Assembly (NCBI RefSeq): GCF_006345805.1 | Contig: NW_021834050.1 | Coordinates: 1-27,011 of the forward strand | Length of the DNA: 27,011 nt | Source of the DNA: Octopus sinensis | Taxonomy: Eukaryota | Direction of reading: 5' to 3' | Shown: positions 11,801-14,800 of the stretch, in pieces | How positions within the stretch are numbered: the first letter of the stretch is position 1 | Layout of the letters: the number at the start of each line of letters is the position of its first letter | Position numbers: made by a program

Positions 11801-14800
11801 GTTAATAATTAAACTACGTCTTGTAATACTGTATTCCGAGCAGCAGCAATTTTGTTAGAATCTAATACCTCTCGTAAATCATGTGCTAAGTGAAAATAGG
11901 AATTTCGCTAACAGATATGACTTTAACTTGAAATCAAGCTTTCATTCGTCCCATTGCTGCCTGCCATTCTTTATTACACATTCCAAATATTCTTCCATTC
12001 AATTAAAGGCCTACTTCTCTGAAATAAAAGAGACTCTTGTGAAAATCATTTCCGCTGAGCTACGTCCATATCACAATTGACAGATCAACAAGCCTACGTG
12101 GACACTATTCTCGTAACAATGCCTGATATATCCCGATAATTGTTCTGAGTTACTAATGTTAGCCATTTTACGCATTGGAATTGTATAATAATAAAATTCA
12201 CCCAATAAGTTCATGGAATCGGCTATCTTCTAAAACACGGCTACCAACAGTAATATTTCACTGTGAGACCTTCGTTAATTCATCTTCAAATTTTTGCTGT
12301 GAAGAATGTATTTAATTTTAATCGCTGCATACGGAGTGTCGCAAGGCTCTCCTGCTATTCCGTCGCTCGGGCAACGCCTGCGGTGGGGGTTCCACCACAT
12401 TCTTCTATAGAGGGTTGGTAGAGGCGAAATGTGAAGACACCTTGGGGGAAACCCTGGGTCTCGACGATAATCAGCTGGCCAGTCTGTTCCGACGTACGTT
12501 CGAGCCGAAGACACTGGACAACTTCCAGAAGTCTCTGGCATGGCAATGCTACGAGGAGCTCTACCTGTTCGGGATAAACTCGCAAGGCACGGTGGCCAAG
12601 ACAGTCCGATGTGTCCAAGATGCGGACGGGATAGGGAAACCGTCCCGCACGCTATTGTTCATTGTTCGGTCGTGTCTGAGGTGTGGGTTTATGCCGAACA
12701 GCTGTTGTCAAGCACACGAAGAGTACAGCTGTCGACTGAGTGTATTAAAAAAATTGACCCACCAGATTTCCTCGCGAAAGAAGGTAAGAATTGTTTTCTC
12801 GTTGTGGTAGCAATTGCGAAAGAGGTGATATGGAAGACGAGAATGAAAGGTATACGGTCAGGCAAGTTCATATCCGGCCCTGGGTTGATGAATTACTTCA
12901 TCTACCACCTGAAAAGGAAGATAGGGCTGGAGAGAAAATGCCTGACTAAAAGAGTGTATGAAGAACGATGGAAGGATGTAGCACGGAAGTTGAGAATGGA
13001 TGACACCACATAAATGTAAATCAGAACGAAACCAAAAGTATCAGTGGTGAGGCGGGGCTCGTGGGGTCCGAGCTGAACCCGCCCCCACTCCACTTGTAAT
13101 GTCTTCCGGTCTGTTTTTTCATTCGATTTTATAATTTTTGCATTTTTGTGAATTTTTGAATTTTTAATCTCATCCTTTTTGTAACCCCATCCGAGAATCT
13201 GACCCCACATCAGGTTGTATTGTCCCCTCTTTGTTTGCCCCTTGTGGGTAATAATAAAACAGATAATTGTTCTGAGTTACTAATGTTAGCCATTTTACGC
13301 ATTGGAATTGTATAATAATAAAATTCACCCAATAAGTTCATGGAATCGGCTATCTTCTAAAACACGGCTACCAACAGTAATATTTCACTGTGAGACCTTC
13401 GTTAATTCATCTTCAAATTTTTGCTGTGAGGAATGTATTTAATTTTAATCGCTGCTGGTAACACAATGTCTTCATCGATGACTTTTTAAAAATTTTGCTC
13501 TTGAAATTAATTAAACAACTTTAATTTAATTATGTCTATAGTATAAATACGTGGAGGCGCAATGACCCAGTGGTTAGGGCAGCGGACTCGCGGTCATAGG
13601 ATCGCGGTTTCGATTCCCAGACCGGGCGTTGTGAGTGTTTATTGAACGAAAACACCTAAAGCTCCACGACGCTCCGGCAGGGGATGGTGGTGATCCCTGC
13701 TGTACTCTTTCACCACAACTTTCTCTCACTCTTACTTCCTGTTTCTGTTGTATTTCAAAGGGCCAGCCTTGTCACTCTCTGTGTCACGCTGTATAGCCCC
13801 GAGAACTACGTTAAAGGTACACGTGTCTGTGGAGTGCTCAGCCACTTACACGTTAATTTCACGAGCAGGCTGTTCCGTTGATTCGGATCAACCGGAACCC
13901 TCGTCGTCGTAACCGACGGAGTGCTTCCCAGTATAAATACAGTTCTCGAGACAATGCTTCTCTTAACCGAAATATTATGATAGGTTTTTCAAAATGTTCC
14001 TCCTGAATTTCGAAAATCGGAGAGATGCCTTGAATCAAAATATTTCAATTATAGGTATAGACACAGGCGTGGCCGTGTAGTAAGAAGCTTGCCTCCCATC
14101 ATCATGTTTGCAGGTTCAGTCCCACTGCGTGGCAACTTGGGCAGTTGTCATGAGTGGATTTTCTAGACAAGCTGAAAGAAACCCATCGCATCTTTATGTG
14201 TGTGTGTGTGTGTGTGTGTTGTTGTTGTTAAGCAACAAGACGGGTAAGGGTGATTAGATGATGGTCTAGGGCTTAGGGGCGGGAGACCCCAGACCCTGGA
14301 AAAAACACCTTGGTCGTCTTGTTGTTGTCGAGGGCTCTTCGTTGACGCCTGATACCACTGGGAGGTGGTCCTCGAAGTCGCTAGAAATGGATATCTCGAG
14401 GTCCAAATTCTTGAAAGGCTGTGTGTGTCCGCTTGACAACCGATGTTTTTGTGTTTACGTCCCCGAAACTTAGAAGTACACCAAAAAACCGATGAATGAA
14501 TACTAGGTTTACAAAGAATAAGTCCCAGGGTCGATTTGTCGGACTAAAAGCAGTGTTCCAGCATGGCCGCTGTCAAATGACTGAAACAAGTAAAAGAATA
14601 AAAGAATATGGGTTTCATTCTTTCAATGGCAACGTAATCATAACAAATTAAGCAGATAGGTGTAAGTTCATTATGTTTGTAATTAAAAGTAAGTCCATAT
14701 TGCAAATTTGATTCGTTACATTTCCTGTATTTGGTGACATTTTGGTATCAATTTGTGTTGCGCGCTGGGCGAAATGCCTTGCAGTATTTCGTCTGCCGCT

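What the first reader, a model, noticed from the sequence alone, without database searches (positions are those of the whole stretch)
12135..13455. Tx1-type LINE flanked by a 194-bp target-site duplication
Seen: the 933-bp insert is bounded exactly by a 194-bp direct repeat (193/194 identical), and the repeated DNA is ordinary host sequence (part of a decayed hAT transposase), so it is not an LTR. Known: L1/Tx1 TSDs are normally tens of bp at most; the 126-bp TSD of rotifer R9 is the classic long exception and R9 uses a different endonuclease type. Inference: this family may make its second-strand nick ~190-200 bp away, close to one nucleosome repeat, and so duplicate host DNA at every insertion.
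Basis: partly seen in the sequence, partly recalled or inferred. Interest (0 to 1): 0.85.

Follow-up and report, generated by a model that had tools for sequence, protein, structure and literature searches.

The report
Truncated LINE with 194-bp flanking duplication
A broken-off copy of a jumping gene (an L1/Tx1-type LINE) sits between two near-identical 194-base copies of the DNA it landed in; this is an unusually long but already documented kind of insertion scar, most likely a one-off.

Summary
Bases 12135-12328 and 13262-13455 are a 194-nt direct repeat with one mismatch (12303 A / 13430 G), and they abut a 933-bp insert exactly.

The insert is the 3' end of a non-LTR retrotransposon:
- the last ~226 codons of ORF2, with a zf-RVT/CCHC domain and one frameshift at ~12552;
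- a 248-nt 3' UTR with no poly(A).

Full-length relatives carry APE endonuclease, RT and zf-RVT domains. They resemble a protein NCBI names after Tx1 more than human L1 ORF2p. "Tx1-type" is therefore plausible, but no tree was built.

The element's 3' terminus at 13261 is fixed independently by seven SINE tails in the window. The repeat therefore has true target-site-duplication geometry.

Not supported:
- The "decayed hAT" label: no hAT match in 16 translations.
- The family-wide inference: 0 of 3 SINE arrays with the related tail have a long flank duplication, and one has a 14-bp TSD.

TSDs over 100 bp are a known minority outcome of L1 insertion, and much longer family-wide ones are published. 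Other genomic copies, reads and empty alleles could not be examined.

The parts
12135..12328 (.). Left copy of the 194-nt duplication (target DNA; 32% G+C). In the pre-insertion site, its left edge marks the inferred bottom-strand nick and its right edge the inferred top-strand break.
   Evidence: boundaries read
12329..13261 (+). 5'-truncated LINE fragment, 933 bp, 48% G+C: ORF2 C-terminal region plus 3' UTR, with no poly(A) or microsatellite tail.
12331..12552 (+). ORF2 remnant, first frame (74 codons). It aligns with residues 310-382 of relative P0001 at 67% identity.
12552..13013 (+). ORF2 remnant, second frame (153 codons plus TAA stop at 13011-13013). It aligns with P0001 383-535 at 50% identity. 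The two frames overlap by one base at 12552, so this copy carries a one-base frameshift there.
12546..12686 (+). zf-RVT domain (Pfam PF13966, E = 2.7e-9, 38 bits against a cut-off of 27.5). The C-x2-C-x8-H-x4-C motif at 12612-12665 was read by eye in the translation.
   Evidence: translation
13014..13261 (+). 3' UTR. The last ~47 nt (13215-13261) form a tail box shared with a SINE family in the window, and this fixes the element's 3' terminus at 13261 (+/- 1-2 nt).
   Evidence: fold of 13015-13261 unremarkable (z = 0.58)
13262..13455 (.). Right copy of the 194-nt duplication. It starts directly after the LINE's last base.
17819..18412 (-). Comparator: a SINE array (18398-17833) with the LINE-like tail, flanked by a 14-bp TSD (18412-18399 and 17832-17819, 13 of 14 identical).

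Best explanation
This is a single, genuine retrotransposition event of an APE-type L1/Tx1-group LINE that ended with an unusually distant second-strand break.

Inferred course (standard target-primed reverse transcription):
1. The element's endonuclease nicked the bottom strand between the bases now at 12134 and 12135.
2. The freed 3'-OH primed cDNA synthesis on the RNA's 3' tail.
3. Reverse transcription stopped or was aborted after 933 nt, which gives the 5' truncation.
4. The top strand was broken 192-194 bp downstream, at the site now read as 12328|13456, rather than the usual ~10-20 bp. That end was joined to the cDNA, possibly through 1-2 nt of microhomology.
5. Filling in the two long single-stranded stretches duplicated the 194 bp.

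I take the long distance to be a sporadic outcome: a distal nick or lesion was used in place of a proximal one. This is known for 5'-truncated L1 insertions. I do not take it as a fixed property of this family.

Shown: the repeat, its exact abutment to both element ends, the identity of the insert, and the independent position of its 3' terminus.
Inferred: the order of events, the nick positions, and that the event was sporadic.
For: - Exact 194-nt repeat, 193 of 194 identical, bounding the insert.
- The insert reads as ORF2 from its third base. Residues align contiguously with P0001 310-382 and 383-535, and zf-RVT is above Pfam's cut-off.
- The last base of the insert (13261) aligns with the last base of seven SINE tails, so the right repeat copy starts where the retroelement ends.
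- Relatives are ~1150-aa proteins; the 11 best rows all carry PF03372 (APE) + PF00078 + PF13966. The window's C-end aligns to the extreme C-end of one of them (P0004 973-1121, E = 7e-23).
- Sporadic rather than family-wide: of 3 SINE arrays with the related tail whose 3' flank lies in the window, 0 have their 3' flank repeated within 2.5 kb upstream. One has an ordinary 14-bp TSD, and two show none.
- Literature passages read: TSDs >100 bp occurred in under 10% of L1 events recovered from HeLa cells and in 57-91% of events in NER-deficient cells (PMC5223499). 'Extremely long TSDs' accompany 5'-truncated L1 insertions in HeLa assays (PMC2912911).
Against: - Only one copy of this LINE is available. 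No other copy exists in the window, and the host genome could not be searched, so 'sporadic' is not demonstrated.
- The SINE tails are only 83-90% identical to the LINE tail over ~41 nt. They may be moved by a sister LINE family, and only one SINE array gives a clean TSD.
- No reads, empty allele or orthologue were available, so a later rearrangement or an assembly error is not excluded.
- The bottom-strand nick site (5'-...caattatc|gggatat-3') is not the A/T-rich site typical of mammalian L1. That comparison is recalled and says little for a Tx1-like enzyme.
Confidence: 0.6

Rival explanations
1. Family-wide property. This LINE family places its second-strand nick ~190-200 bp from the first at most or all insertions, as R9 does with 126 bp or Dualen-4b_cRei with hundreds of bp, perhaps set by nucleosome spacing.
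For: The geometry of this one copy. Family-wide long TSDs do exist in other LINE clades (PMC9977147 passages).
Against: Of 3 SINE arrays carrying the related 3' tail, 0 have a long flank duplication, and one has a 14-bp TSD. Long TSDs arise sporadically in L1-type insertion, so one case does not call for a family rule. A single length cannot show nucleosome periodicity.
Confidence: 0.12
2. Two-step origin. An ordinary insertion with a short TSD at the left edge of the 194 bp was followed by illegitimate (microhomology) recombination between a filled and an empty allele or sister chromatid. This joined the end of the 194-bp segment to the interior of the LINE, both truncating the LINE and duplicating the segment.
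For: It yields the same final structure. A short original TSD would be hidden in the first bases of the repeat. The 5' junction allows 1-2 nt of microhomology (inferred from the reading ...L-H-T-E-C-R across 12326-12342 against relatives' W-H-L-E-C-R).
Against: It needs two rare events where one suffices. There is no trace of a longer LINE copy or second LINE tail next to 12135.
Confidence: 0.1
3. Assembly artefact. Filled and empty haplotypes, or chimeric reads, were merged into a false duplication.
For: One mismatch in 194 nt is also what two alleles might show. No read data could be seen.
Against: The two junctions constrain each other. The LINE's 3' end is joined to the first base of the segment and its 5' end to the last base. 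Any molecule with both junctions therefore has the segment on both sides. A filled allele with a short TSD would show the LINE tail followed by the end of the segment, not its start. There are no Ns or gaps anywhere in the window.
Confidence: 0.1
4. The LINE inserted precisely at the junction of a pre-existing tandem duplication of the 194 bp.
For: None specific; it is formally compatible.
Against: It requires insertion at one exact position out of ~388 with no TSD of its own. The copies are 99.5% identical, so the duplication would have to be as young as the insertion.
Confidence: 0.03

Closest known systems
Sporadic >100-bp TSDs of human L1 insertions in cultured cells (Gilbert 2002/2005 and Symer 2002 as cited in PMC5223499; also PMC2912911). 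I read passages only.
   Same: An APE-type L1-group element, a 5'-truncated insert, and a duplication of >100 bp abutting both ends. The published explanation is use of a distal second nick.
   Different: This is a natural genomic copy in an invertebrate (probably an octopod cephalopod) rather than an engineered human L1. The element has no poly(A) tail but a specific 3' tail shared with SINEs. The frequency in this family is unknown.
R9 of bdelloid rotifers, 126-bp TSD. I saw it only as cited in PMC9977147; the R9 paper itself was not read.
   Same: A long TSD generated by a non-LTR retrotransposon.
   Different: In R9 the long TSD is a constant of a site-specific rDNA element. From recall, R9 has a restriction-like endonuclease. 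Here there is one copy, relatives with an APE-type enzyme, and no evidence of constancy or site specificity.
Dualen-4b_cRei of Chlamydomonas (PMC9977147, passages)
   Same: Flanking duplications that look like TSDs and are far longer than usual.
   Different: More than half of observed de novo Dualen-4b_cRei insertions carry duplications >50 bp (median length 900 bp), and the element carries both RLE and APE. Here there is a single 194-bp case in an L1/Tx1-group element.
L1-Tx1 LINEs of octopus genomes (PMC13282606: 13 families and 421 recently active insertions in O. vulgaris; PMC8967140). Passages only.
   Same: The domain set of relatives (APE + RT + zf-RVT). The nearest named protein comes from an octopod, Argonauta hians (56% identity).
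   Different: No sequence from those papers was compared. Their supplements are closed. Neither passage mentions TSD length.

Membership tests
Non-LTR retrotransposon, L1 group (L1/Tx1) | C-terminal Cys-His zinc-binding domain of ORF2 (Pfam zf-RVT) | tested here: met
   PF13966 E = 2.7e-9, 38 bits against a cut-off of 27.5
Non-LTR retrotransposon, L1 group (L1/Tx1) | Reverse transcriptase domain of non-LTR type | tested here: inconclusive
   Absent from the window copy because of 5' truncation. It is present in relatives P0001 and P0003 (RVT_1), whose C-terminal region is 46-50% identical to the window's. P0003's RT matches human L1 ORF2p best among solved structures (E = 1.5e-21 against 2e-12 for R2).
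Non-LTR retrotransposon, L1 group (L1/Tx1) | N-terminal apurinic/apyrimidinic-type endonuclease | tested here: inconclusive
   Not in the window copy. The 11 best full-length relatives of P0003 all carry PF03372. The window's C-end aligns to the C-end of one of them.
Non-LTR retrotransposon, L1 group (L1/Tx1) | No terminal repeats of its own; 5' truncation; 3' end defined by the RNA | tested here: met
   The coding frame starts at the insert's third base. The 3' end coincides with the SINE tail ends. The flanking repeat is unrelated to the element.
Tx1 clade specifically | RT-domain phylogeny grouping with Tx1 references rather than L1 | not tested
   No labelled reference set was available. 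The only lead: P0003 scores 196 bits against a protein NCBI names 'transposon TX1 149 kDa protein' against 79.6 bits for human L1 ORF2p. The window fragment itself shows no direct similarity to that protein.
Tx1 clade specifically | Sequence-specific targets, frequent in the clade (recalled; also PMC4494074 passages) | not testable with these tools
   One copy only.
Target-site duplication from TPRT | Direct repeat of non-element DNA abutting both termini of one insert | tested here: met
Target-site duplication from TPRT | Empty site carries a single copy of the repeated DNA | not testable with these tools
   No allele, orthologue or reads; the eukaryotic genome is not in any open collection.
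LINE family with constitutively long TSDs (R9-like, Dualen-like) | Most independent copies carry a long TSD of similar size | tested here: not met
   The LINE itself has only 1 copy. Partner-type SINE arrays: 0 of 3 have a long flank duplication, and 1 of 3 has a 14-bp TSD. This is an indirect test on few cases.
hAT transposase remnant (the duplicated DNA) | Similarity to hAT transposase or dimerisation domains | tested here: not met
   0 hAT hits in 4 ORFs and in 12 stop-as-X frames of 10000/11000-12328 and 13262-14500. The only rows were ArgoMid (16.3 bits) and TSGP1 (13.3 bits), both below their cut-offs.
LTR retrotransposon | Terminal repeats that belong to the element and recur in other copies | tested here: not met
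   The 194 nt are found only as this pair in the window. The insert is a non-LTR ORF2 3' end.

The most novel reading that the evidence does not exclude
This octopod L1/Tx1-type family routinely breaks the second strand about one nucleosome repeat (~190 bp) from the first nick. Every insertion would then duplicate ~190 bp of host DNA. That would make it the first APE-only LINE family with a constitutive long TSD, and a steady source of small segmental duplications.
Probability: 0.1. Interest if true: 0.7.

Novelty: new member of a known kind. Interest (0 to 1): 0.25.

Why it matters
As a one-off, this is a clean natural example outside mammals of a known minority outcome of LINE insertion, a TSD of more than 100 bp. 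It shows that such events survive in a germ line and add small duplications to the genome. It would matter more if a census showed the length to be typical of the family. Second-strand cleavage is the least understood step of target-primed reverse transcription, and a family with a fixed ~190-bp offset would give a handle on what positions that break.

Tried and rejected
- hAT label. I scanned four open frames over the repeat and left flank, then 12 frames of both flanks read through stops as X. No hAT family appeared, so the label is dropped. The DNA may still be some decayed repeat.
- Clade naming. The ESM Atlas search with P0003 returned only 'hypothetical protein' clusters with RVT_1/zf-RVT, so it gave no clade name.
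- Structured 3' UTR. Folding 13015-13261 gave z = 0.58, and 143 of 200 shuffles fold at least as well, so I make no claim. A local G+C-rich hairpin is visible in the MFE structure but was not tested.
- RNA genes. Rfam at gathering thresholds gave 0 matches in the window, and ARAGORN gave 0 tRNAs.
- More LINE copies in the window. There are none beyond the tail-box matches.
- Close protein relatives. One search gave 3 hits among 477 candidates and one search gave 3 among 48. The best is 63% identical, so the database holds no copy of the same family.
- Literature. (PMC8934628; bioRxiv 10.1101/522623) matched my phrase only in a reference list or as '9/14/17 bp-long TSDs', so they were not used. 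Searches found no paper on long TSDs in cephalopod or Tx1 elements. That covers only the held library, and the supplements, which might list TSD data for octopus TEs, are closed.
- Not done:
  - Census of genomic copies, reads, and empty allele or orthologue.
  - The caps for the search of protein representatives, structure prediction, fold search and complex prediction were left unused, because none of them bears on TSD length.
  - No tree was built for Tx1 versus L1, because no labelled L1 or Tx1 reference sequence was at hand.

Full report
**Observation**

The repeat finder on 11000-14600 returns a single direct-repeat family: 12135-12328 and 13262-13455, 194 nt, spacing 1127. The copies differ at one position, 12303 A versus 13430 G. 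Self-blastn gives E = 6e-96. The sequence shows that similarity ends abruptly on all four sides. The enclosed insert is 12329-13261, 933 bp, at 48% G+C against 32% for the repeat.

**What the insert is**

- A stop-to-stop frame at 12471-13013 encodes 180 residues with a Pfam zf-RVT match (E = 2.7e-9, above the cut-off).
- The protein search found three relatives with RVT_1 + zf-RVT at 46-50% identity.
- Two adjacent frames of the insert align end to end with relative P0001:
  - 12331-12552 with residues 310-382 (67% identity);
  - 12552-13010 with residues 383-535 of 540 (50% identity).
- The insert is therefore ORF2 sequence from its third base, with a one-base frameshift at about 12552 and a stop at 13011-13013.
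- It ends in a 248-nt 3' UTR with no poly(A).
- This is the 3' part of a 5'-truncated non-LTR retrotransposon.

**Which kind of LINE**

- Longer relatives of P0003 are ~1150-aa proteins. The 11 best rows all carry PF03372 (APE-type endonuclease), PF00078 and PF13966.
- The window's C-terminal region aligns with the very end of one of them (P0004 973-1121, E = 7e-23).
- Among solved structures, P0003's RT matches human L1 ORF2p (E = 1.5e-21) ahead of R2 proteins (2e-12).
- Only one of the 120 listed rows has a clade-type name: P0084, 'transposon TX1 uncharacterized 149 kDa protein' from alligator. It scores 196 bits, with 40% RT identity.
- The window fragment itself has no direct similarity to P0084.
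- L1/Tx1 group is therefore well supported. 'Tx1-type' is a reasonable lead that rests on an automatic name, and no tree was made.
- The nearest named protein to the window fragment comes from the octopod Argonauta hians (56% identity). From recall, the window's SINEs look octopus-like.
- Passages of PMC13282606 list L1-Tx1 among the recently active LINEs of Octopus vulgaris (13 families, 421 insertions).

**Where the element ends**

- The last ~41-47 nt of the insert match seven SINE tails in the window at 83-90% identity.
- In the alignment, the final A of the insert (13261) lines up with the final A of the SINE units, after which the sequences diverge into flanks or further units.
- This fixes the LINE's 3' terminus independently of the repeat, to within 1-2 nt. 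The right repeat copy begins there.
- Together with the 5' junction at the coding frame's start, this shows that the 194 bp abut both ends of one retroelement, which is the defining geometry of a TSD. Its length is 192-194 bp, depending on whether the first 'ga' is target or tail.

**The duplicated DNA**

It occurs only as this pair in the window. The 'decayed hAT transposase' label found no support. Four open frames and twelve frames of both flanks read with X at stops gave no hAT family. The only rows were ArgoMid and TSGP1, both below their cut-offs. This does not affect the TSD argument.

**Mechanism**

The simplest account is one TPRT event:
- a bottom-strand nick at 12134|12135;
- cDNA synthesis from the tail;
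- truncation after 933 nt;
- a top-strand break 192-194 bp downstream;
- joining and fill-in.

These steps are inferred from the structure and from the established TPRT model; none was observed.

**Sporadic or family-wide**

Direct evidence would need other genomic copies, which no open collection holds. Indirect evidence in the window comes from three SINE arrays with the related tail whose 3' flanks lie in the window.
- None has its 3' flank repeated within 2.5 kb upstream, whereas the LINE's flank is found at -1127.
- One array (18398-17833, minus strand) has a 14-bp TSD, 13 of 14 identical.
- The other two show no TSD of 6 nt or more without mismatch.
- A fourth array runs off the window's start and was not assessable.

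These SINEs may be moved by a sister LINE, so the test is weak, but it points to ordinary TSDs.

The literature also bears on this; I read passages only.
- PMC5223499 states that TSDs >100 bp occurred in HeLa at under 10% of recovered L1 events, and in 4 of 7, 21 of 23 and 22 of 28 events in XPA-, XPC- and XPD-deficient cells. It proposes use of a distal, unrelated nick.
- PMC2912911 notes 'extremely long TSDs' with 5'-truncated L1 in HeLa assays.
- PMC9977147 reports Dualen-4b_cRei duplications of median 900 bp and cites R9's 126 bp.

A single 194-bp TSD on a 5'-truncated L1-group insert is therefore a known kind of event.

**Rivals**

- An assembly artefact is unlikely on logic. The LINE tail is joined to the first base of the segment and the LINE's 5' end to its last base. 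Any molecule holding both junctions therefore carries the segment twice. A short-TSD filled allele would show a different 3' junction. Without reads I still leave it 0.1.
- A two-step origin (normal insertion, then illegitimate recombination with an empty allele) gives the same structure and cannot be excluded (0.1).
- Insertion exactly at the joint of a pre-existing tandem duplication is improbable (0.03).

**Verdict**

The structure is real in the sequence and is best read as a genuine long TSD from a single L1/Tx1-group insertion, probably sporadic. This makes it a new example of a known phenomenon. The family-wide, nucleosome-spaced mechanism is untested and mildly disfavoured. Interest is modest unless a genome-wide census shows the length to be typical.

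Noticed in passing
window 1-303 (-), 3974-4126 (+), 14760-15143 (+), 17833-18398 (-): A SINE family whose 3' tail box matches the LINE's tail. In 4 of 7 tails the unit is followed directly by another unit, 5'-truncated at the same point (…aaata + 1-2 nt + tatttcg…). This gives head-to-tail dimers and trimers with a period of ~183-184 bp (TRF). They could be inherited multimeric masters or recurrent template switching at one stop point. The similarity of the period to 194 bp looks coincidental.
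   Followed up: partly
window 10879-10939 and 11973-12033: An inverted repeat of 61 nt at 88.5% identity, ~1.1 kb apart, ending about 100 bp left of the duplicated segment. It may be the terminal inverted repeats of a small DNA transposon. No protein family was found between the arms.
   Followed up: partly
window 13537-13928 (+), 9284-9682 (-), 20856-21240 (+), 7060-7223: A second, unrelated SINE-like family at 82-91% identity between copies. By eye, its head has a tRNA T-loop-like box; ARAGORN calls no tRNA. One copy lies 80 bp right of the right repeat copy.
   Followed up: no
window 6384-6790, 22462-22871 (-), 1746-2215: A third interspersed repeat family of about 410-470 bp, at 81-92% identity. 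It was not identified.
   Followed up: no
window 2213-2419, 15618-15866, 20413-20621, 23153-23630, 24022-24534, 4659-5007: Very long microsatellites: (AT)n up to ~240 units, (TATC)n ~130 units, (AGA)n ~115 units. They dominate the self-similarity of the window.
   Followed up: no
window 13043-13093: A local G+C-rich hairpin just after the ORF2 stop, seen in the predicted fold of the 3' UTR. The UTR as a whole folds no better than shuffles, and no covariation test was possible with one copy.
   Followed up: partly
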